Notes: generated from the letters alone by a model not told the origin. A stretch of 64,000 nt of DNA from Thermoanaerobaculia bacterium (GCA_035999335.1 DASYGV010000008.1:3700-67699); one strand, 5' to 3'; counted from the stretch's first letter, positions 38,838 through 54,101 are shown. Program-made: numbers and translations.

Positions 38838-39704
38838 TTAAACGCCTAGCGCGCTCAAATCCAAACGTTCCTTCGCGATCGGCGGACACCAGTAGTACCC
38901 GCCCGTCACCGGTCGCGAGAACGTGAACAGGCCGTCGACGATCCCGTCCTCGCGTCCGACCATCCGCTTCATCATGGTCTCGAAGACGTCGAGCGAATTC
39001 ACCTGCGCAACGAACTCGAGGCCTTCCTGCGTCGCGTTCGCCCACGGCATCGACTTGCGGAGCATGAACATCGGCGGGTCGAAGCTCTCCTGCTCCGTGC
39101 GTTTGATGTGTGCGGACGGCGGCGCGTCCTCGATCTCCTCGTTCGACTCCGCGCGGCGGCCGATGAGCATCTCCCGATCTTCCTCGTCGAGATCGCGGAA
39201 GCGAGAGAGGTCGTGCACCCAGCGCTGCACGACCAGGAAGCTCGAGCCGTCCTCACGCACCGCGGCCGCTGCAGCATCGTCGCCTTTCGGATTCTCCGTC
39301 CCGTCCTCGAAGCGCGTGAGATCGCGTCCGCCGTGATAGGTGAACGTGTCATTCGAGTCGACGAGCAAAAACGCGTCGCCGAGGAGCTCGCGGATGTTCT
39401 GCGTGAGATCGAAGACGACGCCGCGGTCCGGCCCGCGCAGGAGGAAACAGAGCGCCTCCTGCGTCGACGGCACGCTGCACGCGGGACCCGACATCGCCGG
39501 AAACGTGCGCAGTCCGTCGACCGTTTTCTTCAGCGCCAGCACCAGTGGCTCGCCGATCCCGATCACGCCGCACTCGATCGACAGTTCGTCGCGCAGCCGC
39601 CGCAACGCCTGCGGCACATCGGACTGTGGCGCGATGCGAAACAGAAGCGTGCGTCCGACCGGCGGCCGGTCGGCGAGGACGGCAGGCTGGGCGTTCTCGA
39701 TCAT
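38838..39704 (-). CDS. Dyp-type peroxidase
   Basis: The 492-aa track ORF was trimmed to MIENAQP (ATG 39704). FEDGTENP (GxxDG DyP motif) and TGGYYWCPP C-terminal block. Confidence 0.85.
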   Translation of the reverse strand: MIENAQPAVLADRPPVGRTLLFRIAPQSDVPQALRRLRDELSIECGVIGIGEPLVLALKKTVDGLRTFPAMSGPACSVPSTQEALCFLLRGPDRGVVFDLTQNIRELLGDAFLLVDSNDTFTYHGGRDLTRFEDGTENPKGDDAAAAAVREDGSSFLVVQRWVHDLSRFRDLDEEDREMLIGRRAESNEEIEDAPPSAHIKRTEQESFDPPMFMLRKSMPWANATQEGLEFVAQVNSLDVFETMMKRMVGREDGIVDGLFTFSRPVTGGYYWCPPIAKERLDLSALGV

Positions 39705-39743
39705 CGGGCGCGGGATTATGGCAGAGGCGTAGAATCTTGCGCG

Positions 39744-40301
39744 ATGGCGCCACAGACGACCACGAGACTGACGTACGAGGATTTCGTCAAACTGCCGGAC
39801 GACGGTAACCGCTACGAGATCATCGAGGGGAAGTTGTACGTGAATCCTGCGCCCGTGCCGCGACATCAGCGGATCGTAAAAAACCTGCTCCTCTCTCTTG
39901 AACTCTATTTCCGCGCACACCACAACGGCGAAGTTCTTCAATCGCCCATCGACGTCGTTCTTGCCGAGGATGGCATCGTCGAACCCGACCTCATCGTCAT
40001 CAAATCCGAACGTGCCTCGATCGTCGGCGAGAAGAACGTCAAGGGCGCTCCGAACCTCGTCATCGAAGTCCTCTCCGACGGCACTCGGCGTATCGACGAA
40101 GGCAAGAAGCGAAAACTCTACGAGCGCTCGGGCGTCGACGAGTACTGGATCGTCGATCCCGAAGCGGAGTTGGTGAAGATCTACCGGCGCGTCGACGCCG
40201 CGTTTCAGCACGCAGCGGAGTTCAATGCCGACGACGGCGGCACGATCACCACCCCCCTTCTCCCCGGTTTCTCCCTCGACGTCCGCGAAGTCTTCGCCTG
40301 A
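39744..40301 (+). CDS. Uma2-family (DUF820) restriction-endonuclease-fold protein
   Basis: Track ORF trimmed to MAPQTTTRLTYEDF. YEIIEGKLYVNPAP, EPDLIVI and PNLVIEVLS (PD-ExK-like) with KRKLYERSGVDEYWIVDP. Confidence 0.85.
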   Translation: MAPQTTTRLTYEDFVKLPDDGNRYEIIEGKLYVNPAPVPRHQRIVKNLLLSLELYFRAHHNGEVLQSPIDVVLAEDGIVEPDLIVIKSERASIVGEKNVKGAPNLVIEVLSDGTRRIDEGKKRKLYERSGVDEYWIVDPEAELVKIYRRVDAAFQHAAEFNADDGGTITTPLLPGFSLDVREVFA

Positions 40302-40347
40302 GCCGGGCACGCGCACTGCACCGCACCGCTCTCATCTGGAGGTATGC

Positions 40348-40587
40348 ATGAACGAAGAGATCGAATCGGGTTTGCTAGAGGATGTCCACGACCTTGACCC
40401 TGTGGCGCTGGCAGCGGCCTCGCCCATCCGCGCCGCCGACAGCGACGGCACCGACACCGCCGATGACGACGGCACCGACGCCGGTGACGCCGACGGCACG
40501 GACGACAGCGAAGCCGACGGCGACGGCGAGGACGGCAAAGACAGCGATGGCGAAGACGCCGACGGGGACGGCGAAGACAACGCCTGA
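40348..40587 (+). CDS. 79-aa highly acidic Asp/Gly/Thr-rich small protein
   Basis: ATG 40348 with GGAGG 6 nt upstream. MNEEIESGLLEDVHDLDPVALAAASPIRAADSDGTDTADDDGTDAGDADGTDDSEADGDGEDGKDSDGEDADGDGEDNA. Repeated DGTD / DxDGxD units. Confidence 0.6.
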   Translation: MNEEIESGLLEDVHDLDPVALAAASPIRAADSDGTDTADDDGTDAGDADGTDDSEADGDGEDGKDSDGEDADGDGEDNA

Positions 40588-40594
40588 CACGAGA

Positions 40595-40682
40595 CTGTCA
40601 TCCTGAGCCGGCGGAGCGCGGCGAAGGATCTCCTCCCCACTCGCGGGAGGTCCTTCGCCGTCTACGCGGCTCAGGATGACAA
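40595..40682. repeat. TGTCATCCTGAGC...GCTCAGGATGACA long imperfect hairpin
   Basis: Outer arms ctgtcatcctgagccg / cggctcaggatgacag-like. Inner arms ggcgaaggatctcctccc / gggaggtccttcgcc. The right arm contains the ATG (40676) of the JmjC gene. Confidence 0.8.
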
Positions 40683-41878
40683 GCAAGGACACCGTGACCA
40701 TCACCTTCGCCGAAACCCTCGGCGGCGCGATCCGCGTCGACGACTTTCTCGCGCGCGTCTGGGGCCGAACCTTCGCGCACCTCCCGGGCGCGCCCGGCCG
40801 CTTCCACGGCCTCCTTTCCTGGTCCGAGGTCAACGGAATGCTCCAGAAGCATCGCTTGCAGCCGCCGAGGTTGCGGCTCGTGCGCAAAGGCGAGTTCGCG
40901 TCGAAGAGCGAGTACCTCCGTTTCGAAGGCAACGTGCCGTTCGTCGTGCCGGAGAGACTCTCGCAGCGGCTCCGCGACGGCTACACGCTGATCATCGACG
41001 CGGTCGACGACATGACCGACGGCGTGATGCAGGCGGCCGAGGACTTCGAGCGCGTGTTGCAGGAGTCCGTGCAGGTGAATCTGTACGCGGGCTGGCGCGA
41101 ACAGCAGGGCTTCAACCGCCACTGCGACACGCACGACGTCGTCGTCCTGCAGGTCTACGGGAAAAAATACTGGCGCGTATACGAAGGCGGTCGTCTGCAT
41201 CCGCTGAAGAACGACATCGCGCCAAACAAGGAAGCACCGCAGAAGGTGGTCTGGGAAGGGATGCTCGAGGACGGCGAAGCGCTTTACATCCCGCGCGGGT
41301 GGTGGCACGAGGCCTCGGGCGTCGGCGAGGTTACGCTGCACCTGACGTTCGGCATCCATCAGCGCACGGGCGTGGATCTCGTGCGATGGCTCGCCGATCA
41401 GTTCCGCGCGTCGACGGAGTTTCGCGCGCCGCTGCGCCGTTTCGGATCGCGCGAAGAACAGCAGCAACAACTGCAGGAGCTGCTCCGCCAACTCGTCAAC
41501 GCGATCGACGACGATCTGCTGCCGCGCTACTTCACGGACCAGAACGCGCGCGCGCGAACGCGCGGGTGGGCCAGTCTCCCGTGGACCGTTGCGAACACCG
41601 AAGCGCCTCCGATGAATGCGCGGGTCACGCTCTCCGCGCCTCGCGAGCTGAACCTCGTCCGCGACAATGGGTCGATCCGCTTCGATGCGAACGGACGTGT
41701 GTGGCAGTTCGCCGCCGCGGCCGAGCCTCTCCTCCACACGCTCGCGCGCGGTCCCGCCACCGTCGCGGAATTGTGCACCGCCACCGCGGGAGCGCTGGAC
41801 GGCGCGACCGTGCAGCAATTCGTCGTCGAGCTCGCGCGGCAAGGCCTCGTCCAGGTGACGGGCGAGCCCGGCGCGTGA
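40676..41878 (+). CDS. JmjC / cupin-4 family Fe(II)/2-oxoglutarate-dependent oxygenase
   Basis: GFNRHCDTHDVVVLQVYGKKYWRVY (HxD facial triad plus the QVxGxKxW block of RoxA/YcfD-type enzymes) and GEALYIPRGWWHEA (distal His). Confidence 0.8.
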   Translation: MTSKDTVTITFAETLGGAIRVDDFLARVWGRTFAHLPGAPGRFHGLLSWSEVNGMLQKHRLQPPRLRLVRKGEFASKSEYLRFEGNVPFVVPERLSQRLRDGYTLIIDAVDDMTDGVMQAAEDFERVLQESVQVNLYAGWREQQGFNRHCDTHDVVVLQVYGKKYWRVYEGGRLHPLKNDIAPNKEAPQKVVWEGMLEDGEALYIPRGWWHEASGVGEVTLHLTFGIHQRTGVDLVRWLADQFRASTEFRAPLRRFGSREEQQQQLQELLRQLVNAIDDDLLPRYFTDQNARARTRGWASLPWTVANTEAPPMNARVTLSAPRELNLVRDNGSIRFDANGRVWQFAAAAEPLLHTLARGPATVAELCTATAGALDGATVQQFVVELARQGLVQVTGEPGA

Positions 41879-42759
41879 GCCGCGTCTACTGCTCCGACGC
41901 CGCCCGCCTCCGCGGCGACGACAACGCCGCCACCGCCGCGCGCATCGACGTCTGGATCCTCGTCGAGCTCCCGATCACCTGGGGCCGCGATCCGATCACC
42001 GAGGCCGCGCTGCCGCAGACGGTGCGAAACGCACTGAAGCGCGCGTCGCACGACATCCCACGAAGCCGCGTCGTCTTCATTCGCAAACGCGTCGAATGCC
42101 TCGGCGCAACCCGCGTTTACGTCATCCGCAGCGCGCCGCACACCGGCGTGACGCAACTCGACCTCGACACGCTCGAAGACGTCGCGACCGTGCCGTTCGT
42201 CTCGATCGCCAACGACACGGCGTCGTCCGCGGCGCGCCCGCTCGTCCTCGTCTGCACGCACGGACAGCACGATTCGTGCTGCGGCCGCCGCGGCTATCCG
42301 CTCTTCGACGCGCTGCGCCAGCACGACGGCATCGATCTCTGGCAGTGCTCGCACATCGGAGGGGACCGCTTCGCGGCGAACGCCGTCGTCCTTCCGTGGG
42401 GCCTCTACTACGGCCCGGTCGAGCCGCGCGACGCCGGTGCGCTCGTGGACTCGCTAGCGCGCGACGAGATATTTCTCCCCGCGTATCGCGGACGCTGCTC
42501 GATGCCGAAACCGCTCCAGGCCGCGGAGACGTTCGTGCGACGCGAGACGAACATCCTCGCGCGCGACGCGTTCGAGCTCCTGTCGCGCGAGAAGCTCGAG
42601 CACGGACGGATGCAGGTTCGGCTGAAGGACACTTCCGGAGCGATCCACGACGTGACGATCGAACGATCCGACTCGGCGGAGACCGCGATGCTCACCTGCA
42701 CGGCGAGCACGGCGGCCAACGTGTCGCAGTTCCGGATGATCGACTACAAACGCATCTAG
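41875..42759 (+). CDS. sucrase/ferredoxin-like (thioredoxin-like [2Fe-2S]) family protein
   Basis: Track ORF trimmed to GTG 41875 (GTGA overlap with the JmjC stop). LVCTHGQHDSCCGRRG and CSHIGGDRFAANAVV match the Suc_Fer-like Cys/His motifs. Confidence 0.7.
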   Translation: MSRVYCSDAARLRGDDNAATAARIDVWILVELPITWGRDPITEAALPQTVRNALKRASHDIPRSRVVFIRKRVECLGATRVYVIRSAPHTGVTQLDLDTLEDVATVPFVSIANDTASSAARPLVLVCTHGQHDSCCGRRGYPLFDALRQHDGIDLWQCSHIGGDRFAANAVVLPWGLYYGPVEPRDAGALVDSLARDEIFLPAYRGRCSMPKPLQAAETFVRRETNILARDAFELLSREKLEHGRMQVRLKDTSGAIHDVTIERSDSAETAMLTCTASTAANVSQFRMIDYKRI

Positions 42760-42850
42760 GAGCGCCGGCGTCCTCGCCGGCTGGCCCGCAGGCGTCCCGC
42801 GCCTGCGTTTCTGCGAGGCGGCGAGGACGCCGCCTGGCCAGCCGCCGGGG
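42760..42850. repeat. GC-rich composite repeat with several short inverted repeats
   Basis: It starts GGAGCGCCGGC right after the TAG stop, as the 24765 element does. ggcgtcctcgcc (42767-78) pairs with ggcgaggacgcc (42820-31). Inner hairpin gcaggcg-tcccg-cgcctgc. Confidence 0.5.
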
Positions 42851-42923
42851 ACGGCGGCGTTCCACTCCCTCGGGTAGGGAAAACCCCTATCATCATCCCT
42901 CCTTCTGAAGAGAGGCTCGCACC

Positions 42924-44843
42924 ATGCCCAACCATCCCGAGATCGAAGCGCCGGCCACCCGTCCCTTGAAGGCATACGCGTTCGACCCGAGCGCAGGGAA
43001 GCTCCTCGGCAACGAGATGACGATGAACGTCCGTTACGAAGAGCTCGAGCCCGGCCCGGTCGTGAAGGTGCCGTTCGAAGCGGAGAAAAGAGGGGAGATC
43101 GAGCGGCGCGGCAACGCGGTCGCGGTCGTCGACTACGACGGCGCGAACAAGACCTACTACCAGCCGGTCGACCTCGACGACCCGCGCATCCTCATTCGCG
43201 GCGGACTCGATCCCAAAGCATGCGATCCTCGCTTCCATCAGCAGATGGTCTATGCGGTCGTCACCGACACGATCCAGCACTTCGAGACCGCACTCGGCCG
43301 GCGGATCCACTGGCGGCGCGCAGAGCGCAAGGCGGGTGCACCCGGCGGACCCAATCCCGATCACATCTGGACACTCAACCTCTACCCGCACGCGTTCATC
43401 GGCCGCAACGCGTTCTATAGCCCGCGCGCGCACGGCATTCTCTTCGGCTACTTCCGCGCGGGGACGGAGAACGTCGGCCGCAATCTCCCCGGCCAGACCG
43501 TCTTCACCTGCCTCTCGCACGACATCGTCGTGCACGAGACGACACACGCAATCATCGACGGAATCCGCAAGTACTTCACTGAGCGGACGAATCCTGATGT
43601 CATCGCGTTCCACGAGGCCCTCGCCGACCTCGCCGCGCTGTTCCGCCACTTCACGCACCGCGAAGTCCTGCGCGACACCATCGAGCGCACGGGCGGCGCG
43701 CTCTACCGCTACCAGCTGAATCCTGAGATCGAAGTTTCCGCGCTCGACGACTACGAGAACAGCGACGACTCCACGAAGCGGAAACTCAGCTCCCAGTACA
43801 CGCGGCGGAACCCGCTCGTCGAGCTCGCGCAGCAGTACGGCGAGGCCACCGGAAAGGAGCAGGCCCTCCGCTCCGCCCTCGGCAGCAAGCCGAACTCCGA
43901 CGACATCAAGAAGATCACCGAGCCGCACAAGCGCGGCTCGATCCTCGTGGCCGCGGTGTTCGACGCGTTCTTCACGATCTATCAGAAACGCACCGCCGAC
44001 TTGTGGCGCATCTTCCGCGCTGGCGGCGGCAGCGACAATCCGACCGACGTCCCCGTGCCGCTTGCAGACCGTTTGTGCGAGGAAGCGACGCGTCTCGCCG
44101 AACAGTTCTTCCAGATCTGCGTGCGCGCACTCGACTACTGTCCGCCGGTCGACATCACTTTCGGCGGGTATCTGCGCGCGCTCGTCACCGCCGATCTCGA
44201 CCTGCGGCCGCGCGACGAAGTCGGCGTGCGCGACGCGATCATGCAGAGCTTCCGCATGCGCGGCATCTATCCCGAAGGCGCGGGATCGTTCTCCGAGGGG
44301 GCGATCGCGTGGCCGACTGCGCAGGCCCTCGACCTCCCACCTGTGAAGGGTCTCGCCTTCGGCGATCCGAATGGACTGACGGCATGCGAGAAGGATGCAA
44401 CCGGCGACGCACTTCGCGAATACCTCAAAGTCGAGGGCGTCCTCGAGAAGCTCAGCTTCGAGAAGGACCACACGATGCCGGTGCTAGTCACGTCCTTCCA
44501 CCCGCTGTTCCGCATCAACGCCGACGGGAGTCTCCGCACGGACATGATCGTGGAGATGGTCCAGACGCGTCAGATCCCGCTGCAGGCAGACGCGCCGGAG
44601 CTCGGCACGATGGCGTTGCGCGGAGGTGCGACGCTCATCATCCGGAAACCGCGAGCCCACGAGCCCGAAGCGAAGCGCAACGAGGCGACGATCTGCTACG
44701 TGATCAGCAAACATCTGAAGGATCCGGACACCGGGGAAGACCGCGCCGACCGGCAGCGCCGCTTCGCGGAATCCCTCGGCCTCGCCGAAGGCAACGATCC
44801 CGAGCGCTTCCAGATCGACTTCGCAATGGTGCACGGAGTCTGA
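42924..44843 (+). CDS. cytoplasmic HExxH gluzincin-like metallopeptidase-fold protein, family not recognised (module 1, gene A)
   Basis: 639 aa, no signal peptide. TCLSHDIVVHETTHAIIDG then FHEALADL, with the Glu 23 residues after the second His. Alignable over its full length with the 567-aa protein at 52398-54101. Confidence 0.8.
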   Translation: MPNHPEIEAPATRPLKAYAFDPSAGKLLGNEMTMNVRYEELEPGPVVKVPFEAEKRGEIERRGNAVAVVDYDGANKTYYQPVDLDDPRILIRGGLDPKACDPRFHQQMVYAVVTDTIQHFETALGRRIHWRRAERKAGAPGGPNPDHIWTLNLYPHAFIGRNAFYSPRAHGILFGYFRAGTENVGRNLPGQTVFTCLSHDIVVHETTHAIIDGIRKYFTERTNPDVIAFHEALADLAALFRHFTHREVLRDTIERTGGALYRYQLNPEIEVSALDDYENSDDSTKRKLSSQYTRRNPLVELAQQYGEATGKEQALRSALGSKPNSDDIKKITEPHKRGSILVAAVFDAFFTIYQKRTADLWRIFRAGGGSDNPTDVPVPLADRLCEEATRLAEQFFQICVRALDYCPPVDITFGGYLRALVTADLDLRPRDEVGVRDAIMQSFRMRGIYPEGAGSFSEGAIAWPTAQALDLPPVKGLAFGDPNGLTACEKDATGDALREYLKVEGVLEKLSFEKDHTMPVLVTSFHPLFRINADGSLRTDMIVEMVQTRQIPLQADAPELGTMALRGGATLIIRKPRAHEPEAKRNEATICYVISKHLKDPDTGEDRADRQRRFAESLGLAEGNDPERFQIDFAMVHGV

Positions 44844-44844
44844 G

Positions 44845-46197
44845 ATGACGACAGAAAAAACAGGCTTGCGCGTACGGATGTATCGCGTCGGGTTCGGCGA
44901 TTTCTTCCTCGTCACCGTTCCCACCGACGACGGGCCGAAACACATCCTCATCGACTGCGGCGTCACGCCGGGCACGACGCACAACGGCGACATCGGCACG
45001 ATCAAAGCTGCCGTCACGCACATGACCGAGGAGACGAACAAAAAGCTCGCGCTGATCATCGTCACCCATCGGCACATGGATCACATCATCGGCTTCAGCC
45101 GCTGCCCCGAGTTCCAAAAGGACTTCACGGTCGAATCGATCTGGATGCCGTATTGGGAATCCGAATACGACGAGGCGGTGAAGTTCCAGGCGGACCTCAC
45201 CGAGCTCGCGACGGACATGCAGCACTACCTCGCCTTCTCCGCGGACAAGAACACCGAGACGAACGAGTTGCTCGGCATGCTGCGCAATGCGACCGGTCTC
45301 GAGGACGATGAGTTGTTCGCCGTCGCGGGCACGACGCCTGGCAAAGGCGGCGGCACCAATGCGAAATCTCTCGCGATGCTGAAGAACGGCTTCGGCGTGA
45401 AGCCGGAGTACTACAAGAAAGGCGACAACCCGAAGCTGCCGAAGAGTCTGGAGAACTCCGGTCTCGAGGCCGTGATCCTCGGCCCACCGCCACCCGACGC
45501 GATGGACTTCATGAAGCTCAACGATCTCAAGAAAGGCGTCGGACAGTATCTCGGCGCCGATGGAGGTTCGACCACGCAGTCGAAGATCTTCGAGCCGTTT
45601 GGAAAGATGTGGCAGACCGACGCCAGTGCGTATCCGGAATCCGCGTTCCGCGAATACGCGCCGCGAGTCGAGGACCCGAACGCGAAGCCCGCGCATGAGA
45701 AGCTCGAAGCGGTGATCAATGCCGCGCAGCCGGCGATTCTCCTCACCGCGGTGAAAGAGCTCGAGCATTCGCTCAACAACCAGAGCCTCGTCGTGCTTTT
45801 CACGTTCAAAGGCAAGAGGCTCCTCTTCGTGGGCGACGCGCAGGCGGGGAACTGGACGTACTGGATGTACGGCGGCACTCCCACGAAGGCGCCCTCGCTC
45901 GATGATCTGTCGGCCGAGGGAAAGAGCGTCCTCGGAAATCTCGACTTCTACAAGGTCGGCCACCATGGCAGCACGAACGCGACGCCGATCACCGCGGTCG
46001 ATGCGATGGGTGGGACGTTCGCGTCGATGTGCTCGACGCAGGCGGATACGTACGGCAACCCCGACAAAGGCACCGAGGTGCCGCGCGATCCGCTGCTCGC
46101 GGCGCTGGCGAAAAAGAGTGCGCTCGTGCGCAGCGACTCTCCGGACGCGCAGGGCAAGTTCGACGTCACTGATCTCTACGTCGACTACGAAATGTAG
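44845..46197 (+). CDS. MBL-fold metallo-hydrolase, ComEC/Rec2-type motifs (module 1, gene B)
   Basis: 450 aa. YRVGFGDFFLV, ILIDCG, THRHMDHIIGF (HxHxDH), FVGDA, YKVGHHGSTNATP. The ATG is 1 nt after the gene A stop. Confidence 0.85.
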   Translation: MTTEKTGLRVRMYRVGFGDFFLVTVPTDDGPKHILIDCGVTPGTTHNGDIGTIKAAVTHMTEETNKKLALIIVTHRHMDHIIGFSRCPEFQKDFTVESIWMPYWESEYDEAVKFQADLTELATDMQHYLAFSADKNTETNELLGMLRNATGLEDDELFAVAGTTPGKGGGTNAKSLAMLKNGFGVKPEYYKKGDNPKLPKSLENSGLEAVILGPPPPDAMDFMKLNDLKKGVGQYLGADGGSTTQSKIFEPFGKMWQTDASAYPESAFREYAPRVEDPNAKPAHEKLEAVINAAQPAILLTAVKELEHSLNNQSLVVLFTFKGKRLLFVGDAQAGNWTYWMYGGTPTKAPSLDDLSAEGKSVLGNLDFYKVGHHGSTNATPITAVDAMGGTFASMCSTQADTYGNPDKGTEVPRDPLLAALAKKSALVRSDSPDAQGKFDVTDLYVDYEM

Positions 46198-46220
46198 GGC
46201 GGGCTGAAGCCCGCCCTACA
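46193..46220. repeat. TAGGGCGGGC...GCCCGCCCTA hairpin family, copy 2 (bidirectional terminator position)
   Basis: tgtagggcgggc-tgaa-gcccgccctaca followed by tttt. It lies between convergent stops and contains the TAG stop of the MBL gene. Confidence 0.8.
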
Positions 46221-46233
46221 TTTTGCCAATCCT

Positions 46234-49200
46234 TCAGGGCAACTGGATGGTGATCGTGTTGGTGTTGTTGGTCTCGACGGACTCGTCGACCTCATTCGAG
46301 CTATCCGCGGTCACGTCGATCGTGGTTTGCCCCGAATGCCCGCTCGTCTGCACCGTCACCTCGATCCATCCGTGCGGGGCAAGCGCGGGGGTTTCGACCA
46401 CACCGATGAACGCGTTGCCGTCGATCTGGATCTTCGTCTTCGATGGGGCAGCCGTGGAATCGCCGGTGTTGGAGATCAGTGCGGTCACGGTGAGCTCATC
46501 CGAGGTGCCATGGGAGGGCTCGGCGCGAATCGACGCCACGACCAGATCCGGTTTCTGCGCGGGCGGCGGCGTGTAGTAGACCTGCGTCGACACGACATTG
46601 GACCATCCGCTCGGCAGGCCCACGGGACCCGCCGCGAACGTCGTGCGCACGCGGTAGTAATACATGCCGGTCGAGACGCCGTTGCGGATGTACGTGGTTC
46701 CGGCCGTGGTCGCGAGGTCGGCCCAGTTCGACGATTCGACGCGGACGTCGTCGACGAACCATCCCATCGGAGTCGAACCGGGTTTGTTTTCAGGGCCAGT
46801 GATGAACCGGAAGCGCAGACGGATGGACTTGTCCTTGTAGGCGGTGAGACTGATCGACTGCGGCGTCATCGCCTCCGCGTCGAACGCGAGAGCCGCATCG
46901 GGCGCGAGCGCCGAGCGCGCGCTCTCATACACGGTGTCCCAGTCGAGAGTGCCGTCGTCTTCCGCGATCTGGACGACGACTTTGTCGTCGCTCTCATTCA
47001 TCGACCAATCGGAGAACTCGAGCGTCGCGGTTCCCACCGCAGGAATGGCAATCGGTTGCGCATACGTCAGCGTCGAGGTCGCGTTGGTGGCGCCTTCCGC
47101 CGCACGTCCCCAGAACGAATTCGAGCCGGAGCTCACCTTCAGGCTCGATGTCTCCCAGTTGAACGCGCCCGTGCCCTCGGTCGAAGACACCCACTGGCCG
47201 AGGCCGGACTCCGCATCGTCACTGGCGAGTGAAGCGAGGAATGTCGCTTCCTGCAACTCGTCGGGTCCGGTGGCTCCCGCGGGACGATCCCACGCCAGCT
47301 CGATCTTGCCGTCGGTGTCGGGCTCGGTATGCCCAACGCCGAAACGGAGGACCGGAGGCTGTTTGACGATCGAGCAGTCGGGCGTCACGTCGGCGATCAC
47401 GGTCGCCGTGAGATTCGTCGTGTTGCCGTCGCTCGTGAAGCCGGTGAGGCCCGTGAGCGTCAGGGCGACGCCGGCCGGGAGCTTCCACGTCGCCGACGTC
47501 GCGGTCTGGTAGTTGTCGATGTGTGTACATCCATCGAACTCGTTGTCGTTCGTCCCCAACGTGTACGCGGCGTCATCGAGATTCGGCGTCGCGTTTCCGG
47601 GCTGCGGCTGCGAGTCGACGACGGTCTGCGCGGGCTGATCGGACGCCCCCGTGTTTCCGTAGCCGTGGTTCTCGTCGGTATAGAGGATCGCCAGGCCCGG
47701 CGCCCAGGTCGGATCGCCGCGTTCACTCTGCCCTTTCCCGTCCTTGTCCCAACTGTTCCGGTCACGCACTTCGATGTAATAGGCGTGATCGAGATTCACG
47801 CCATCCGCTGAGCTGACGCGCGAAAAGCCGTTCGGGAAGAGGCGCGTGTGCTCGTCGCTCGACTCGAAGTCGCTTGCGTAAATCTGCTGCGCGCCGGCCG
47901 AGATGTCGATGTCGTCGATGAACCATCCGCGCTTCGCGACCGCGGGATCCGTCGAATAGGCGAAACGAAGCAGCAGTTCCTGTCCCTTGAACGGAGTCAG
48001 GTCGAATTCGTCATCGATCCACTGTGGATCGGGGTAGGTGCCGAGATGGCGGTTCGTATTGGTGAGTGCATTGGCTTCGCCGGACACGCCGGTGATGAAG
48101 TTTCCGTATTGCAGATTGCAGGCGTTGTTGTTCGGATTGAATCCGGTGAGCGTCGTTCCGTTCCTCGAGGCCAGTGAAGTCCAGGTCTGGCCGCCATCGA
48201 CCGACGCGAGCACGAAGGCGTAGTCCCAGTCCCACTCGATCTCGAACAGCGACTTGAACTTCAACGTGATCGCAGGCGCGTTCGCATGCTGAACGAGGTC
48301 AGGGAGGAAGACGTCGAGAGTGTGCCCGGGGCAACCGAAGTCGTCGCCCTGGCCCGAATGCCACGCACGCACACCCGAGGGAACGCTGTCGATCAGCTTC
48401 ACCTTCGGAAGATCGACGCGAAGCGCGTCGGCGTTGTGGATGCCCGGACCCGTCAAGGTGTACGGCGTGCCGTCCGGACGCTTCCAAGTGATCTCGCCCG
48501 TGTCCTTCTTCGACTCCCGCAGCGTGTAGATGCCGTCCGTTGCCTCGAGCGGGACGATCCAGCCGAGATCCTGGCGGCTGAACACCGTCATGAACTGCGC
48601 GTGGTCGCTGCCCATGAGCTCCCACGATCCCATCGTCGCTCGCGAGCCCGTGGAGTAGAAATCGGGCAGGCCGAGGGAGTGGCCGTATTCGTGCGCGATG
48701 ACGGACATCTTCTCCACGGCGGATTCAGGATTCACGTTGTACGGTCCGACGCGGATGAAAACCGGGATGCCCGTGTAGGTGGTCGTCATCTCCCTGCGCG
48801 AGCTGTCCGTCCACCACATCACCTGACCTTCGTGATTGCGAAGCATGTCGTTCGAGACATAGCCCTGCTCGCCGTTCGCGTCGGTGAAGTAGTACTGAAG
48901 ATCGGACTTGTGCGGCCAGACGTTGTTGATCCCGGTCACGCTCGTGTTGCCATTGCCGCCGTCGCCCGCGAACATCAGGTTGAAGAAATCGACGACTCCG
49001 TCCTTGTCGGTGTCGAAGTCGTTGTAGTCGAGGTCGGGATCGGCGAGCGATGCGGCGTCATAGACGATCTTTGCCGTCGGTCCGCACGCATCGTCGACTC
49101 CGAACAACAATCCCTGTCCCGTCAGCGCGCCGAGAAGCGCGTGACCGGTCTTGTCCGCACCGTAGTAACCCTGCGTGCCCGGAAGCAGGTACCAACCGTT

Positions 49201-50046: not shown

Positions 50047-50148
50047 ATGCTGTTCGACCCTTCTTCTCTCGCTTTTGGTAGTGTTACCACTACCCTGCCC
50101 GGCGCAAGGCACAAAGGGTGCCAGTTCTCAGGAGTCTGCGAGTGAGGC

Positions 50149-50924: not shown

Positions 50925-51002
50925 CGGATCGATCGATGGAGGTGTTCCATCGCGGCTTGGAAAGCCCGTCACACCGGTGGTCTGAAACTTTCAGCGGGGC
51001 GA
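50925..51002. repeat. ~80-bp direct repeat, copy 2 (overlaps the last 12 nt of the MBL gene at 50991)
   Basis: See copy 1. Its final tcagcggggcga is the stop plus the last three codons (SPR) of the MBL gene. Confidence 0.75.
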
Positions 51003-52397
51003 GCGTTTCCTGCCGCGGAACTTCACTGTGATTTCCTTGACCAGCCCCGCCTCGCCTTTTCCTTTGCAGTCGGTGGTCGAGTGATAGTCACTGCGCGCCT
51101 TGAGCTCGGCGACGAGCGTCTTGCGCGGCACTTCCGTGTGCGAATCCGTGTCGCCATGTTTGCCCCGTCGCGTCGACATCAGCGTCACGATCTTCGGCTT
51201 GTTTTTGAACAGCTCCCAAAGCGGTTTCGGCGTGGCGTTGAGACTTCCGTGATGACCGACCTTGTACAAGTTCGTCGCGCGGAGCCGCCTGCGCATCGCG
51301 ACCCGATTCTTCGCGTGGTTCAACGCGTAGTCCCAGTTCTCGATTTGCGCGTCGCCCGGAAAAAGGAGCAGCTTGCCGTTCACTTCGAACAGAAGAATGA
51401 GACTCGTGTTGTTCAGCGTGCCGTCGATGATCCGTACGAGCTCGAGCAGCTGCTTTGCCTGCGCCTGGCGCAGCTTGCGTACAAACCAGCGCACCGACTT
51501 CGGCAGCGCGTCTCCCTGCACCGACGGCGCGTCCGGAAAGAGCTTCTCGACGGTGAGCTCCGCGCTCACGCGCGTGGCCGCGGCCTGAAGGCTCCAGTAC
51601 TGGTCCGACTCCTTTGCGTACGAACGGACTTCCGGATGATCCTCGATCGTCGGCGGTCCAAGGACGTGCACCTTCACGCCCGGGAGGACTACACCCGCGA
51701 GCGCGGTCTTCATGCCGTACGACAACCATTCGTGCGCCCTGCCCATCGCCTGCAGATTGCGTACGGCGGCGAGGTTCTTGAGGTTCGTTTCGCCGAGGAA
51801 CCCGAGACGGCTGACGAGCGTGCGCCCCACGCCGAGCTGGCCGACCATCGCGCGGTCCGGTTGCGGCTCCGGCGACTCCTCTTCGGCGACGTCGTTCTCG
51901 GCCTCGTCTTCCAATTCCTCGAACTCGTGTGCCTTGACGCGCGCGACGACTGCCTTCGCTACGTTTTGCATCGAATCGAGCGATCGGGCGTGGAGCGCGG
52001 AGAACGCCTTCCCGTCGGTTCGTGCGGCGCCACGTCCCCGCACGGCGCCTCGCGGCAGCTCCGGGTCCTCGGTCCACGGCTGGATGATCAGTGCGTTTTC
52101 GCTGATGCTCCTGATGACGTCGCCCGGACCTTTGCCGTTCGCACGCGGCGTGAACCCGCTGATGTGATCCGCGTGACGATGCGTCACGATCACCGCGTCG
52201 AGCCGCCCCCCGGTGATCTTCTTGATGTTGGCCGCGGTGTCATCCATCTGCGACTCGCGCCGCTCTGGAGCCGCCGTCGAGCCGAAGTCGATCAGGATGT
52301 GCCGTTCGCGATCGTTCTTGTAGCGGAACGTCAACAGGAAGCAGTCGCCAAACCCAACGTTGTACATCCGGATGCGGACATCGACCGGACTCGCCAT
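50991..52397 (-). CDS. MBL-fold metallo-hydrolase, ComEC/Rec2-type motifs (module 2, gene B)
   Basis: 468 aa. YNVGFGDCFLL, ILIDFG, THRHADHISGF, FPGDA, YKVGHHGSLNATPK. Paralogue of 44845-46197. Its start codon directly abuts the stop codon of gene A (0-nt spacer). Confidence 0.85.
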   Translation of the reverse strand: MASPVDVRIRMYNVGFGDCFLLTFRYKNDRERHILIDFGSTAAPERRESQMDDTAANIKKITGGRLDAVIVTHRHADHISGFTPRANGKGPGDVIRSISENALIIQPWTEDPELPRGAVRGRGAARTDGKAFSALHARSLDSMQNVAKAVVARVKAHEFEELEDEAENDVAEEESPEPQPDRAMVGQLGVGRTLVSRLGFLGETNLKNLAAVRNLQAMGRAHEWLSYGMKTALAGVVLPGVKVHVLGPPTIEDHPEVRSYAKESDQYWSLQAAATRVSAELTVEKLFPDAPSVQGDALPKSVRWFVRKLRQAQAKQLLELVRIIDGTLNNTSLILLFEVNGKLLLFPGDAQIENWDYALNHAKNRVAMRRRLRATNLYKVGHHGSLNATPKPLWELFKNKPKIVTLMSTRRGKHGDTDSHTEVPRKTLVAELKARSDYHSTTDCKGKGEAGLVKEITVKFRGRKRSPR

Positions 52398-54101
52398 CTA
52401 CCACTCCTCCTCGGGGCGTTTCTTCGATCGCGTGGCGCGCCGAAGATGCAGGCTCGAGATCGACAGGCGCGCCGTGGACTCTCCGCGCAACGCGCCCGAC
52501 TCCCACAGGAAGTCGAGTCGTTTCTGCTGCTGCTCGACGCTGCGCAGCGGGTTGTACACGTGATACTTGAGGTGGCCGTATTCGTCGAAGATCAGCGCGC
52601 CGCCGCCGAACAGACGCAGCTTCTTCTCGTCCGGCATTCCCTCCGGCTTGCGCATGTCGAGGGAGTCGAGCTCCGACGCCAGCGGCTCGAGGATCTGCAC
52701 GTATTCGCAGACCGTCTCATGGAGCACGAATCCGTCGGAGCCGACGCGCATGCACGGACGCACCGTGGTCACACGCGTGAACGCTTCCGGGTGCAGGCCG
52801 AGGTCGCGGCGGTTCTCCCAGACAAAATGAAACACCTCGTCGTGATCGCGCCGCATCGCGTCGAAATGCGTCCGCGAGTAGTCGAGCTTCTCCGGCGCCG
52901 CCTTCCAGTACCCATCCGCCGTACCCGACGCCGGCTTGATCCCGAACGCCTGGAACGCCGATCGAACGCACGCGCGCAACTCATACCGCGTGTCGGCCGG
53001 CCGGATCTCGCGATCGGCGGTCAGGAGCGCGGAAAGGTAATCGCCGAATGTGACATCGACCGGCGGCGCGTAGTCGAGCGCCCGAATCGCGGAGGTGAGG
53101 AGGCAGTCCGCGATGTCCGCTCCTTCTTCGATCGCGCGCGAGCGATCGACGCGCGTGCGATCGCGAATCAGGGCCGTCAGACGCCGGCTCCACATCTCCA
53201 CAAACGCCGTCAGCATCGCCGCGACGAGGATCTCTCCGCGGCGATGCGCCTCCACGAATTCCTCGTCCTTATGGTAATGATCGGGACTCGGTGCGAGGTC
53301 ACGCATCGAATGCCGCAGCGGGCCGCGCACCAGATTCAATTCGTCGCCGACCTGTTCCGCCAATCCGAAGATCATGTTCTTTCGCAACGCTTCGCGAGAG
53401 AGATCCTTCGTGCTCAAAGGAGCGTCGCCGCGGCCGCGATCGATGGTGCTCGCGATGACTGCCGGCAGCGAGAACACGGACAGGAGCGCAACCACGTCCG
53501 CGAATCCTTCGTGGAACGCGGCTTGATCGGCCGACGACGGCTCGCGGTAGCGCTCCCGGAGTCCGTCGATGAGCGCGTGCGTCGTTTCGTGCACGATGAT
53601 GTCGTGGGAGAGACAGGTGAACACCGGCGCCCCGCCCTTGCCCGGGAAGTAGCCGAACAGAAGCGCGTTGAGCTGGTCGGAGTAGAACGCATTCGCCTCC
53701 GAGAACGCGTGCGGAGCGACTTTGAGCTGATGGCCGTCGAATCCCCAGTTGATGCGGCGGCCGAGGGCGAGCTCGAAGCGGCTGAGCGTCTTCATCACCA
53801 GCGCGTAGACGTTGTGCCGGTGGAACTCCGGGTCGCGAACGAGCTTGTCTCCCAGACCCTCTTTCGGTTGCTTCGACCAGCGATCGGGATCGATCCGGGA
53901 GGCGGGCGTGTAGAGCGTATCCGTCGCTGCGTCGAAGTCGACGACTTCGACGCGGTATCCGACCGGCCCGGGACTCAGCTTCTCGGCTGGAATGGTGATC
54001 TGGGCCAGCAGGATCTCGCCGTCGACGCGAACGGTCGGATCCTGCGCGATGATCGTGACGCTACGCTCCCGCGGCGGCGGCAGTGCGGCAGATTCCTTCA
54101 T
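52398..54101 (-). CDS. cytoplasmic HExxH gluzincin-like metallopeptidase-fold protein (module 2, gene A)
   Basis: 567 aa, no signal peptide. TCLSHDIIVHETTHALIDG then FHEGFADVVALL. It shares LxPGPV, VVDxDxA..T.Y.P, FE.ALGRRI.W, RG.ILVAA and ALDYxPPVDxTFGxYL blocks with 42924-44843. Confidence 0.8.
   Translation of the reverse strand: MKESAALPPPRERSVTIIAQDPTVRVDGEILLAQITIPAEKLSPGPVGYRVEVVDFDAATDTLYTPASRIDPDRWSKQPKEGLGDKLVRDPEFHRHNVYALVMKTLSRFELALGRRINWGFDGHQLKVAPHAFSEANAFYSDQLNALLFGYFPGKGGAPVFTCLSHDIIVHETTHALIDGLRERYREPSSADQAAFHEGFADVVALLSVFSLPAVIASTIDRGRGDAPLSTKDLSREALRKNMIFGLAEQVGDELNLVRGPLRHSMRDLAPSPDHYHKDEEFVEAHRRGEILVAAMLTAFVEMWSRRLTALIRDRTRVDRSRAIEEGADIADCLLTSAIRALDYAPPVDVTFGDYLSALLTADREIRPADTRYELRACVRSAFQAFGIKPASGTADGYWKAAPEKLDYSRTHFDAMRRDHDEVFHFVWENRRDLGLHPEAFTRVTTVRPCMRVGSDGFVLHETVCEYVQILEPLASELDSLDMRKPEGMPDEKKLRLFGGGALIFDEYGHLKYHVYNPLRSVEQQQKRLDFLWESGALRGESTARLSISSLHLRRATRSKKRPEEEW

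What the first reader, a model, noticed from the sequence alone, without database searches (positions are those of the whole stretch)
42924..46197. Candidate undescribed two-gene system, copy 1: cytoplasmic HExxH gluzincin-like protein coupled to a ComEC-type MBL hydrolase
A 639-aa ORF without a signal peptide carries VVHETTHAIIDG followed 23 residues later by FHEALADL. That is an HExxH plus downstream Glu zincin arrangement, but it sits in about 600 aa that I cannot place in any named peptidase family. Its stop codon (44841-44843) is 1 nt from the ATG (44845) of a 450-aa MBL-fold protein with THRHMDHIIGF and a C-terminal YKVGHHGSTNATP. That motif pair is characteristic of the ComEC/Rec2 MBL domain, which acts as a nuclease in competence proteins. 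Neither gene has a metabolic partner nearby. The same ordered pair recurs in diverged form 4.8 kb away on the other strand. A protease-like sensor or activator paired with a nuclease-like effector is common logic in conflict (anti-phage or abortive-infection) systems, yet I do not recognise this pair as any named system. An alternative reading is a leader-peptidase/tailoring pair serving the acidic-peptide operon immediately upstream.
Basis: partly seen in the sequence, partly recalled or inferred. Interest (0 to 1): 0.8.

Follow-up and report, generated by a model that had tools for sequence, protein, structure and literature searches.

The report
Metalloprotease paired with gated nuclease
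Two diverged copies of a two-gene module pair an unannotated cytoplasmic thermolysin-like zinc protease with a DNA-uptake-type nuclease carrying two extra loops; this most likely is a protease-activated suicide nuclease of the kind recently found in anti-phage immunity, but with a protease class not yet reported for it.

Summary
Two translationally coupled pairs lie at 42924-46197 (+) and 54101-50991 (-). Each encodes an HExxH...E protein (here "Z") followed by a metallo-beta-lactamase (MBL) protein (here "M").

Z models as a thermolysin/aureolysin fold and has no Pfam, NCBIfam or PADLOC hit. M is a ComEC-type MBL with about 180 extra residues in two insertions that contain disordered loops.

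- **Linkage:** the pair is conserved across more than 10 phyla. Of 80 loci, 74 have the MBL directly downstream, and 5 of the 6 exceptions are cut at contig ends.
- **Co-variation:** Z and M distance matrices correlate at r = 0.89.
- **Mobility:** the pair sits on 37 plasmids, in the inspected cases next to Hachiman, SIR2, toxin-antitoxin and integrase genes.
- **Extra effectors:** 29 of 80 loci add a phospholipase gene. Z is also found fused to MBL, S8 protease and lipase domains.

The closest known kind is the protease-gated MBL pro-nuclease (HamM, Avs1a, CanC; Tuck 2025, Evans 2025). Those studies report only trypsin, caspase and S8 partners.

Best reading: Z cleaves M's gating loops to release a DNase, causing abortive infection. 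This is a new variant of a known kind and has not been tested experimentally. The link to the upstream acidic-peptide operon is rejected.

The parts
42759..42863 (.). Imperfect 39-nt inverted repeat in the 165-nt gap between the upstream operon (stop about 42759) and Z1. It is the likely transcriptional boundary.
   Evidence: arms 42759-42797 / 42825-42863, 82% complementary; GC3 shows the real upstream gene ends at 42759, not 42908
42924..44843 (+). Z1: 639-aa cytoplasmic thermolysin-fold zinc metallopeptidase. It has an N-terminal beta-rich region (about residues 10-100), a catalytic domain (about 100-450) and a fast-evolving C-terminal alpha/beta domain (about 450-639).
43533..43616 (+). 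Zinc and catalytic motif of Z1: H204-E205-T-T-H208 through E231 (HEALAD).
   Evidence: invariant in 46 of 46 aligned sequences; the HExxH...[H/N]Exxx[D/E] motif is kept in 138 of 138 full-length family representatives
44845..46197 (+). M1: 450-aa ComEC-type MBL hydrolase, a predicted gated pro-nuclease, translationally coupled to Z1.
45067..45084 (+). MBL metal-binding motif H75-R-H77-M-D79-H80 of M1. The other core motifs are D331 (GDA) and H373-H374 (HHGS, 45961-45972).
   Evidence: invariant; 40 of 41 diverse partner proteins keep HxHxDH and 41 of 41 keep HHG[S/G]
45157..45405 (+). Insertion 1 of M1 (residues about 105-187) relative to the ComEC MBL domain. It is helical with a low-confidence loop at 160-168, and N172 is invariant.
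45493..45777 (+). Insertion 2 of M1 (residues about 217-311). It contains a low-confidence, sequence-variable loop (about 237-250) flanked by the conserved motifs Q-Y-L and P251-F252...W256. This loop is the candidate gating and cleavage site.
46190..46223 (.). Perfect 16-bp hairpin overlapping the M1 stop codon, between M1 and the convergent M6 protease gene. Likely a bidirectional terminator.
52398..54101 (-). Z2: 567-aa paralogue of Z1 with IVHETTHALIDG...FHEGFADV. It belongs to a second clade that ends in ...LHRRRA...EEW.
50991..52397 (-). M2: 468-aa paralogue of M1 (THRHADH, GDAQ, YKVGHHGS). Its ATG directly follows the Z2 stop codon.

Best explanation
Each pair is an autonomous two-gene conflict module made of a zinc metalloprotease (Z) and a latent nuclease (M).

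**Shown here**
- Z is a cytoplasmic thermolysin-fold protein with all catalytic motifs intact.
- M is a ComEC-type MBL with intact metal-binding motifs and two large insertions containing disordered loops.
- The two genes are translationally coupled, almost never separated, vary together in sequence and move horizontally.

**Inferred by analogy with HamM, Avs1a, VcMBL and CanC**
- M is a zymogen whose insertions gate the active site.
- On a trigger, probably phage infection, Z cuts the insertion loop or loops.
- The released Zn-dependent DNase degrades DNA and stops the infected cell (abortive infection).
- The trigger may be sensed through Z's fast-evolving C-terminal domain or through its oligomerisation.
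- In many relatives the same protease is also coupled or fused to phospholipases or other lytic enzymes. It probably licenses those as second effectors.
- The two copies in this genome are old, separately co-adapted protease-nuclease pairs. They may respond to different triggers.
For: **M matches the published gated-nuclease architecture**
- Its best sequence families are the defence MBLs LmuA-MBL (E 1e-19 and 5e-21), Avs1a, RTasMBL, PDC-M48B and 6A-MBL, plus ComEC.
- Its best structural match is the ComEC MBL domain 9ic4 (E 1.4e-8, TM 0.70 on the 266-residue target).
- About 254 profile positions of M correspond to about 76 ComEC residues between the motif-II strand and HHGS. That gives roughly 180 extra residues, split into two insertions.
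- The insertions carry low-pLDDT loops at 160-168 and 222-260.
- Tuck et al. report dual disordered insertions in every protease-associated nuclease and show cleavage-dependent DNase activation. Evans et al. show the same for VcMBL.

**Z looks like an active protease**
- Thermolysin and aureolysin are its top two PDB matches (probability 0.99 and 0.98).
- The HExxH...[H/N]Exxx[D/E] motif is present in 138 of 138 full-length representatives, and NAF[Y/W] in 129 of 138.
- H335, R337 and G338 are invariant.

**Obligate linkage**
- 74 of 80 loci from more than 10 phyla have the MBL directly downstream on the same strand. Five of the six exceptions are truncated contigs.
- Stop and start codons overlap or abut.
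- A Z-MBL fusion protein exists (P0270).
- Z and M distance matrices correlate (r = 0.89, Mantel p = 0.001, n = 41).

**Conflict-system signatures**
- Distribution is patchy and cross-phylum identity is high. Bradyrhizobium Z is 57-58% identical to Z1, whereas Z1 and Z2 in the same genome share 34%.
- Z is on 37 plasmids, 21 of them conjugative.
- Inspected plasmid loci have these neighbours: Hachiman (DUF1837 plus helicase), SIR2 twice, VapC, a CHAT protein, ThiF/multiubiquitin/JAB genes, integrases and IS elements.
- Canu-like MBL genes lie adjacent in several loci.

**Effector swapping**
- A lipase-type gene lies within 6 kb in 29 of 80 loci (patatin 21, PLD 2, DUF2235 3, PLC-like 3).
- N-terminal fusions to Z include S8, PLC-like phosphoesterase, Zn-PLC, alpha/beta-lipase, an amidase-like domain and DUF2278.

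**Possible sensor or oligomerisation features**
- Tandem Z-Z proteins often have a degenerate first HExxH, which suggests Z works as a dimer.
- The C-terminal part of Z evolves faster (33-34% mean identity against 54-65% for the catalytic domain).
Against: - No experiment exists for this family. Cleavage, DNase activity, toxicity and phage defence are all inferred.
- M scores far below the curated cut-offs of Avs1a (46-53 bits against 420), 6A-MBL and ComEC. It is a separate clade.
- The motif-III histidine is not obviously conserved. M1 has ILGPP where a ComEC-type His would be expected; this ComEC comparison rests on my recollection, not on a tool result.
I could not check that the insertions actually cover the active site.
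- No universally conserved cleavage-site residue was found in the loops.
- Published systems attach the protease to a recognisable sensor (STAND, HamA-HamB and others). Z has no recognisable sensor domain.
- The window itself is ordinary chromosome, with ribosomal proteins, PlsX/FabD and Mfd, rather than an obvious defence island.
- Most immediate neighbours in the 80 genome loci are housekeeping genes.
- The second-best structural match of M is a phosphorylcholine esterase. A non-DNA phosphodiester substrate is therefore not excluded.
Confidence: 0.6

Rival explanations
1. Z is a regulator or sensor module, and another protease is the real activator. That protease would be the S8 domain fused to Z in some relatives, or one encoded elsewhere. 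Alternatively, Z restrains M in a toxin-antitoxin-like way by degrading or sequestering it until Z is inactivated.
For: - Published work describes an S8-associated MBL clade.
- S8-Z fusions followed by an MBL gene exist. S8 is found in 9 of 80 loci.
- Tandem Z-Z proteins tolerate loss of HExxH in one copy.
Against: - 115 of 149 family representatives are standalone Z with no S8; only 12 carry S8.
- The catalytic motif is kept in 138 of 138 full-length members, and always in at least one copy of the tandems.
- A pure adaptor would not need an invariant active site.
Confidence: 0.12
2. The genes encode exported degradative enzymes or antibacterial toxins. Protease, nuclease and phospholipases would be used for predation, interbacterial competition or nutrient scavenging, not for intracellular immunity.
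For: - The partner set (patatin, PLD, Tle1-like DUF2235, PLC, amidase, nuclease) resembles type VI secretion and polymorphic-toxin effector repertoires.
- A secreted M6 protease gene lies between the two copies in the window.
Against: - None of the four proteins has a signal peptide or transmembrane segment.
- No PAAR, Rhs, VgrG or immunity-gene pattern recurred in the neighbourhoods.
- The M6 gene is not conserved next to the pair; only one weak hit was found in 80 loci.
- The MBL clade is related to intracellular defence nucleases.
Confidence: 0.07
3. The pair has a housekeeping role in DNA uptake, repair or turnover: a ComEC-like nuclease plus a maturation protease.
For: ComEC is the closest solved structure, and TIGR00361 gives a partial match.
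Against: - There is no competence channel or transmembrane domain.
- The score is far below the ComEC cut-off (21-24 bits against 190).
- Distribution is patchy and plasmid-borne, with several diverged copies per genome. For example, L001, L047 and L056 come from one MAG.
- No conserved DNA-metabolism neighbours were found.
Confidence: 0.04
4. One reading: a leader-peptidase and tailoring pair serving the acidic-peptide/JmjC operon immediately upstream.
For: Physical proximity and the same strand: acidic 80-aa ORF at 40345-40587, JmjC at 40676-41878, third gene ending at 42759.
Against: - No homologue of the JmjC protein, the acidic peptide, the third gene or Uma2 occurs in any of the 80 related loci.
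- A 165-nt gap with a 39-nt inverted repeat separates the units.
- The second copy of the pair has no such operon beside it.
Confidence: 0.01

Closest known systems
Protease-gated MBL pro-nucleases of anti-phage systems: HamM (HamMAB Hachiman), Avs1a / VcMBL (AVAST), LmuA-associated MBL, DRT UG9 MBL, CanC (canu). Sources: Tuck et al., Science 2025 (PMC12799240); Evans et al., bioRxiv 10.1101/2025.11.14.688446
   Same: - ComEC-type MBL fold with intact metal-binding motifs.
- Two insertions with disordered loops at equivalent places in the fold.
- A dedicated, co-varying, adjacent protease gene.
- Horizontal mobility and defence-island contexts.
- Direct though weak sequence matches to the Avs1a, LmuA-MBL and RTasMBL models.
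   Different: - The partner is a thermolysin-fold zinc metalloprotease, not a trypsin, caspase/CHAT or S8 protease.
- The protease gene lies upstream and stands alone, as in canu and unlike the trypsin systems.
- No recognisable sensor domain (STAND, HamA-HamB, SMC) is fused in most members.
- The insertions are longer (about 80 and 95 residues) and partly helical.
- Scores fall far below the family cut-offs, so this is a separate MBL clade.
- Phospholipase genes often accompany the pair.
The 'subtilisin/S8-associated' MBL clade (Clade 3 of Evans et al.; subtilase track in Tuck et al. fig. S2). Described only bioinformatically.
   Same: - Proteins annotated 'S8 family serine peptidase' on Methylorubrum, Rhizobium and Phyllobacterium plasmids contain a full Z domain in their C-terminal half.
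- In the two loci inspected the next gene downstream is an MBL (Methylorubrum) or an unannotated 513-aa protein (R. etli).
- The Methylorubrum MBL aligns with M1 across the insertions at 30% identity (E 1e-28).
   Different: - In this window, and in about 77% of family representatives, there is no S8 domain at all.
- The conserved partner of this MBL clade is therefore the Z metalloprotease domain, which Pfam-based annotation cannot see.
- That the published clade is the same one is my inference. I could not see their trees.
Peptidase family M4 (thermolysin, aureolysin)
   Same: - HExxH, a Glu 23 residues downstream within an xEAxxD motif, and an NAF[Y/W] substrate-binding motif.
- The best structural matches are M4 enzymes.
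- NCBI names some members 'peptidase M4'.
   Different: - The protein is cytoplasmic, with no signal peptide or propeptide.
- Pfam M4 models are not matched at threshold.
- It has an extra N-terminal region, a 50-residue low-confidence insert (267-316) and a 190-residue C-terminal domain.
ComEC/Rec2 competence nuclease domain
   Same: Closest solved structure; shared GxGD, HxHxDH, GD and HHGS motifs.
   Different: No membrane channel domain, two large insertions, and a score far below the TIGR00361 cut-off.

Membership tests
Protease-gated MBL pro-nuclease modules (HamM/Avs1a/CanC type) | ComEC-like MBL nuclease core with intact metal-binding motifs | tested here: met
   Best fold match is ComEC 9ic4 (E 1.4e-8). 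HxHxDH, GD and HHGS are invariant. Pfam Lactamase_B is matched above its cut-off.
Protease-gated MBL pro-nuclease modules (HamM/Avs1a/CanC type) | Two insertions with disordered loops relative to the canonical ComEC nuclease | tested here: met
   In the AF2 model the insertions span about 105-187 and 217-311, with pLDDT below 50 at 160-168 and 222-260. About 180 residues are extra relative to ComEC between motif II and HHGS.
Protease-gated MBL pro-nuclease modules (HamM/Avs1a/CanC type) | The insertions occlude the active site | not testable with these tools
Protease-gated MBL pro-nuclease modules (HamM/Avs1a/CanC type) | Adjacent, co-evolving protease gene | tested here: met
   74 of 80 loci have the MBL directly downstream. 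Distance matrices correlate at r = 0.89, Mantel p = 0.001. The protease class (metallo) differs from all published ones.
Protease-gated MBL pro-nuclease modules (HamM/Avs1a/CanC type) | Site-specific cleavage converts the MBL into a DNase; the system defends against phage | not testable with these tools
   Needs biochemistry and phage assays.
AVAST type 1 Avs1a (NCBIfam NF041809) / 6A-MBL (NF058524) / PADLOC LmuA-MBL, RTasMBL, PDC-M48B | Whole-protein score above the curated cut-off, with companion genes of the system present | tested here: not met
   Avs1a scores 46-53 bits against a cut-off of 420; 6A-MBL scores 27-38 against 220. PADLOC matches cover mainly the N-terminal 100 residues. No STAND, SMC, RT or trypsin gene lies beside either copy in the window.
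Peptidase M4 (thermolysin family) | HExxH plus a third zinc ligand Glu about 20 residues downstream, and an NAF[W/Y] motif | tested here: met
Peptidase M4 (thermolysin family) | Match to Pfam PF01447 / PF02868 at the gathering threshold | tested here: not met
   Z1 has no hit. Z2 scores 13.9 bits against a cut-off of 22.4. The family profile against PDB matches only the thermolysin motif stretch, at E = 0.14.
Peptidase M4 (thermolysin family) | Thermolysin fold of the catalytic domain | tested here: inconclusive
   The top two PDB matches are thermolysin and aureolysin (probability 0.99 and 0.98, TM 0.54-0.55 on the target), but E is only 0.026-0.086 and rmsd is high.
Peptidase M4 (thermolysin family) | Secreted pre-pro-enzyme | tested here: not met
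   No signal peptide or hydrophobic N-terminus.
ComEC/Rec2 competence protein (TIGR00361) | Polytopic membrane channel plus MBL domain; score of at least 190 bits | tested here: not met
   Scores of 20.8-23.7 bits; no transmembrane segment.
RiPP leader peptidase / tailoring pair for the upstream acidic peptide | Conserved co-occurrence with the precursor peptide and modifying enzyme | tested here: not met
   0 of 80 related loci carry homologues of the JmjC protein, the acidic peptide or the third gene.

The most novel reading that the evidence does not exclude
Z defines a large, unannotated family of cytoplasmic immune metalloproteases: at least 1,500 clusters at 50% identity and more than 10 phyla.

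- On this reading Z is both sensor and activator.
- Its fast-evolving C-terminal domain would detect infection.
- It would then license several different zymogen effectors: the gated MBL nuclease, patatin, PLD, DUF2235 and PLC phospholipases, and fused S8 or amidase domains.
- That would make it a self-contained two-gene immune system and a fourth, metallo, class of effector-activating protease.
- It would also be the true conserved partner of the MBL clade currently labelled 'S8-associated'.
Probability: 0.35. Interest if true: 0.8.

Novelty: new variant of a known kind. Interest (0 to 1): 0.62.

Why it matters
- Proteolytic licensing of suicide nucleases was established as a recurring logic of bacterial immunity only in 2025, and for serine and cysteine proteases only.
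- This pair would add zinc metalloproteases to that logic.
- It would assign a role to a very large protein family that no domain library currently recognises.
- It would explain why phospholipase, PLD, patatin and DUF2235 genes cluster with that family.
- It may re-interpret the published 'S8' MBL clade.
- The module is compact, with two genes and no separate sensor. Homologues exist on plasmids of cultivable Agrobacterium, Rhizobium, Bradyrhizobium, Methylorubrum, Hymenobacter and Deinococcus. The hypothesis can therefore be tested directly.

Tried and rejected
- **Family libraries for Z:** Pfam, NCBIfam and PADLOC gave nothing usable. Sequence search of Z against PDB gave nothing.
- **Conserved third gene:** ORF clustering over 80 loci found only Z, M, their antisense shadow ORFs and the variable phospholipase, canu-like and S8 partners. 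No universal third component emerged.
- **Immediate-neighbour census (106 ORFs) against Pfam and PADLOC:** mostly housekeeping families. In metagenome-assembled chromosomes a defence-island signal is not evident from nearest neighbours alone. The signal comes from plasmid loci of cultured strains instead.
- **Window-wide scan:** ordinary chromosomal genes. A patatin-like gene exists at window positions about 4-858, but it is 42 kb away and not linked.
- **ORF 42096-42908:** rejected as a gene. Its GC3 is 0.52, against 0.89 for the overlapping frame that ends at 42759.
- **Universal cleavage-site residue in the M loops:** none found, only flanking conserved motifs.
- **'Phage' hit MT836994:** an unverified, unannotated 9.5-kb contig that also carries an RsbR/STAS gene. 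It is not evidence for phage carriage.
- **Promoter scan:** no sigma-70-type match upstream of Z1. This is uninformative for this phylum.
- **C-terminal domain of Z:** only chance-level fold matches.
- **Literature searches:** no description of a thermolysin-like or metalloprotease-MBL module in the searchable library.

Full report
**1. The observation**

- Z1 (42924-44843, +, 639 aa) carries VVHETTHAIIDG and, 23 residues after the second His, FHEALADL.
- Its TGA stop (44841-44843) is followed by one base and then the ATG of M1 (44845-46197, 450 aa). M1 has THRHMDHIIGF and YKVGHHGSTNATP. A GGAG motif sits 6-9 nt before that ATG.
- The second pair lies on the minus strand: Z2 at 54101-52398 (567 aa) and M2 at 52397-50991 (468 aa). 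The Z2 stop TAG abuts the M2 ATG, and GAGGAGGAG lies upstream.
- The copies are old paralogues. Z1/Z2 share 36% identity. M1/M2 share about 30% in the C-terminal part and 44% in the N-terminal 79 residues.
- Codon-position GC (GC3 0.83-0.85) marks all four as real genes in a 65% GC genome.
- None has a signal peptide or membrane segment.
- Pair 1 is bracketed by a 39-nt inverted repeat upstream (42759-42863) and a perfect 16-bp hairpin over the M1 stop (46190-46223).
- The apparent ORF 42096-42908 next to Z1 is a shadow ORF. The real upstream gene ends at 42759.

**2. What the proteins are**

Z has no hit in Pfam, NCBIfam or PADLOC. Only Z2 gives a sub-threshold Peptidase_M4 match.

- An alignment of 46 homologues shows these residues invariant: N162-A163-F164-Y165, H204-E205-x-x-H208, H230-E231...D235, and H335-x-R337-G338.
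- From my own knowledge of thermolysin, the first three correspond to its NAFW, HExxH and NExxSD motifs.
- The AlphaFold2 model (pLDDT 77.6, pTM 0.85) matches thermolysin and aureolysin as its top two PDB hits. Probabilities are 0.99 and 0.98 and TM is 0.54-0.55 on the target, but E is only 0.026-0.086.
- Z is therefore a divergent, cytoplasmic, thermolysin-fold gluzincin. It also has a low-confidence 50-residue insert (267-316) and a roughly 190-residue C-terminal alpha/beta domain with no significant structural match.

M passes Pfam Lactamase_B.

- Its best specific families are defence nucleases: PADLOC LmuA-MBL, Avs1a, RTasMBL and PDC-M48B, and NCBIfam Avs1a and 6A-MBL, then ComEC. All score far below their cut-offs.
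- The model (pLDDT 76.4, pTM 0.81) matches the ComEC MBL domain best (9ic4, E 1.4e-8, TM 0.70 on a 266-residue target).
- Relative to ComEC, M has about 180 extra residues in two insertions (about 105-187 and 217-311). These carry low-confidence loops at 160-168 and 222-260.
- The insertions hold conserved anchors (N172 in 41 of 41 sequences; Q-Y-L; P251-F252...W256). These flank a variable loop at about 237-250.

**3. The pair is a conserved, mobile unit**

- Z has thousands of homologues. An exhaustive profile search gives 1,553 clusters at 50% identity with E ≤ 1e-30.
- In one-genome-per-species contigs, at least 590 stretches encode a relative. The phyla include Acidobacteriota, Alpha-, Beta- and Gammaproteobacteria, Myxococcota, Chloroflexota, Actinomycetota, Bacteroidota, Planctomycetota, Gemmatimonadota, Armatimonadota, Verrucomicrobiota and Desulfobacterota.
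- In 74 of the 80 fetched loci, an M homologue lies immediately downstream on the same strand. Five of the six exceptions end at the contig edge, and in the sixth the MBL is 4.5 kb downstream.
- Stop and start codons commonly overlap. One representative is a Z-MBL fusion (P0270).
- Z and M pairwise distances correlate (r = 0.89, Mantel p = 0.001, n = 41). This is expected for co-evolving partners, and also for genes that simply travel together.
- Alphaproteobacterial Z proteins are closer to Z1 (57-58% identity) than Z2 is (34%). That shows cross-phylum transfer and an ancient split between the two window copies.
- Catalytic motifs are universally retained. The HExxH...[H/N]Exxx[D/E] motif is present in 138 of 138 full-length Z representatives. 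HxHxDH is present in 40 of 41 partner M proteins and HHG[S/G] in 41 of 41.

**4. Context and architectures**

- No third gene is universal.
- Lipase-type genes recur within 6 kb in 29 of 80 loci: patatin 21, PLD 2, DUF2235 (Tle1-like) 3, PLC-like phosphoesterase 3.
- Among 149 Z representatives, 115 are standalone and 8 are tandem Z-Z proteins. In 4 of those 8 the first copy has lost HExxH.
- The rest carry N-terminal fusions: S8 subtilase in 12, DUF2278 in 3, PLC-like phosphoesterase in 3, alpha/beta-lipase in 2, Zn-PLC in 1 and an amidase-like domain in 1.
- Several loci have an adjacent MBL with strong PADLOC LmuA / PDC-M48B matches, next to a roughly 960-aa protein. These look canu-like.
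- Z occurs on 37 plasmids, 21 of them conjugative. All seven loci I inspected carry defence or mobility markers:
  - Bradyrhizobium: PLD-Z-MBL with IS630, VapC and a CHAT protein.
  - Methylorubrum: S8-Z followed by MBL, with two SIR2 genes, an AAA-ATPase/exonuclease pair, DUF2235 and IS5.
  - Deinococcus: integrase, Z-MBL, patatin and ThiF.
  - Hymenobacter: integrase, an SMC/ABC-type ATPase directly upstream of Z-MBL, a JAB protein and a recombinase.
  - R. etli: S8-Z followed by a 513-aa gene, beside a cell-wall hydrolase and a second MBL gene.
  - Agrobacterium: patatin-Z-MBL directly next to DUF1837 plus a DEAD-box helicase, which is Hachiman.
  - R. gallicum: multiubiquitin and ThiF genes, Z-MBL and DUF2235.
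- By contrast, the window is ordinary chromosome. Nearest neighbours in metagenome-assembled genomes are mostly housekeeping genes.

**5. Mechanism**

- Tuck et al. (Science 2025, PMC12799240) showed that HamM, Avs1a and CanC are ComEC-like MBL 'gated pro-nucleases'. Two disordered insertions are cut by a partner protease, which unleashes a DNase.
- Evans et al. (bioRxiv 10.1101/2025.11.14.688446) showed the same for VcMBL and AtMBL. They also showed that alpha/beta-hydrolases can be protease-activated zymogens.
- Both studies list only trypsin-, caspase/CHAT- and S8/subtilase-associated MBL clades.
- M shares the fold, the two-insertion architecture and the obligate adjacent protease gene.
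- I therefore infer that Z cleaves M's insertion loops to activate a DNase in an abortive-infection response. The associated or fused lipases would be further Z-licensed effectors.
- The faster-evolving C-terminal half of Z (33-34% mean identity against 54-65% for the catalytic region) and the pseudo-dimeric tandem forms suggest sensing or oligomerisation through that region. This last step is speculation.

**6. Relation to the published 'S8 clade'**

- The MBL downstream of the Methylorubrum S8-Z fusion aligns with M1 across the insertions (30% identity over 387 positions, E 1e-28).
- A canu-type MBL shares only the core motifs with M1.
- Z is invisible to Pfam. Pfam-based annotation would therefore see only the S8 domain of such fusions and nothing for the standalone Z proteins, which are the majority.
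- I infer that the published S8-associated clade is, at least in part, this Z-associated clade. I could not check their trees.

**7. Alternatives**

- The leader-peptidase reading is rejected.
- A secreted or interbacterial toxin role is disfavoured by the absence of export signals and immunity-gene patterns.
- A competence or housekeeping role is disfavoured by the architecture and the patchy, plasmid-borne distribution.
- It remains possible that Z is a regulator rather than the activating protease, or that M's substrate is not DNA. A phosphorylcholine esterase is M's second-best fold match.

**8. Verdict**

- It is a new variant (metalloprotease-coupled) of a recently established kind (protease-gated MBL pro-nuclease modules).
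- It is not a member of any named system by the thresholds tested here.
- All functional steps are untested experimentally.

Noticed in passing
window 40345-42759 (+): A three-gene unit upstream of pair 1. It encodes an 80-aa peptide with an extremely acidic Asp/Gly/Glu-rich C-terminal half, a JmjC/cupin protein (PF08007, E 1.6e-23) and a roughly 285-aa protein with a CTHGQHDSCC motif. The third gene's real frame ends at 42759. This could be a peptide-hydroxylation or RiPP-like operon. It is not linked to the Z-M pair.
   Followed up: partly
window 46234-50112 (-): A 1,292-aa secreted-type M6 (InhA-like) metalloprotease with MAM-like and CARDB domains lies between the two Z-M copies. It is not conserved next to the pair elsewhere (one weak hit in 80 loci).
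   Followed up: partly
L007, L013, L015, L027, L066 (e.g. L015:9253-12132 and L013:9489-10640): A roughly 960-aa protein with no Pfam hit, plus a second MBL with strong PADLOC LmuA / PDC-M48B matches, lies directly beside the Z-M pair in several genomes. This looks like a canu-type caspase/CHAT-nuclease locus stacked next to the metalloprotease-nuclease locus.
   Followed up: partly
proteins P0241, P0242, P0246, P0283 (representative search): Tandem Z-Z proteins of about 1,100-1,200 aa. The N-terminal copy has lost HExxH (HETTQ, HQLTH, HLVCH) while the C-terminal copy keeps it. These look like pseudo-dimers and hint that Z acts as a dimer.
   Followed up: partly
window 52398-52420 (C-terminus of Z2) and clade-2 homologues in alignment A1: Clade-2 Z proteins end in a conserved ...S-x-LHR-x-RA...(E/R)EEW tail, which clade 1 lacks (clade 1 ends ...MVHGG). 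The function is unknown; it may be a docking motif.
   Followed up: no
L084:4583-6976: In Hymenobacter monticola an SMC/ABC-type ATPase (AAA_23, AAA_21, SMC_N) ends 25 nt before Z. This suggests that some Z-M modules are plugged into a Lamassu/ABC-3C-like sensor.
   Followed up: partly
window 44845 vs 44878: A public gene call for M1 starts at Met12 (439 aa, P0390). The Shine-Dalgarno-like GGAG and the homologue N-termini favour the ATG at 44845.
   Followed up: yes
window about 4-858 (-): A patatin-like phospholipase fragment or gene lies at the left edge of the window, related to the patatins found next to Z in Actinomycetota and Deinococcus. It is 42 kb from the pairs, so probably unrelated.
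   Followed up: no
window 39750-40301 (+), 38838-39800 (-), 54494-58603 (+): A Uma2-family putative endonuclease, a Dyp-type peroxidase and a 1,369-aa DUF3857/transglutaminase/TPR protein flank the region. A SIR2-family protein and a phage-integrase-family protein also occur somewhere in the window. I did not map them.
   Followed up: no
L001, L047, L056 (all from MAG DATELS01): One Thermoanaerobaculia MAG carries at least three diverged Z loci. Multiple paralogous pairs per genome therefore seem common in this class, as in the window.
   Followed up: no
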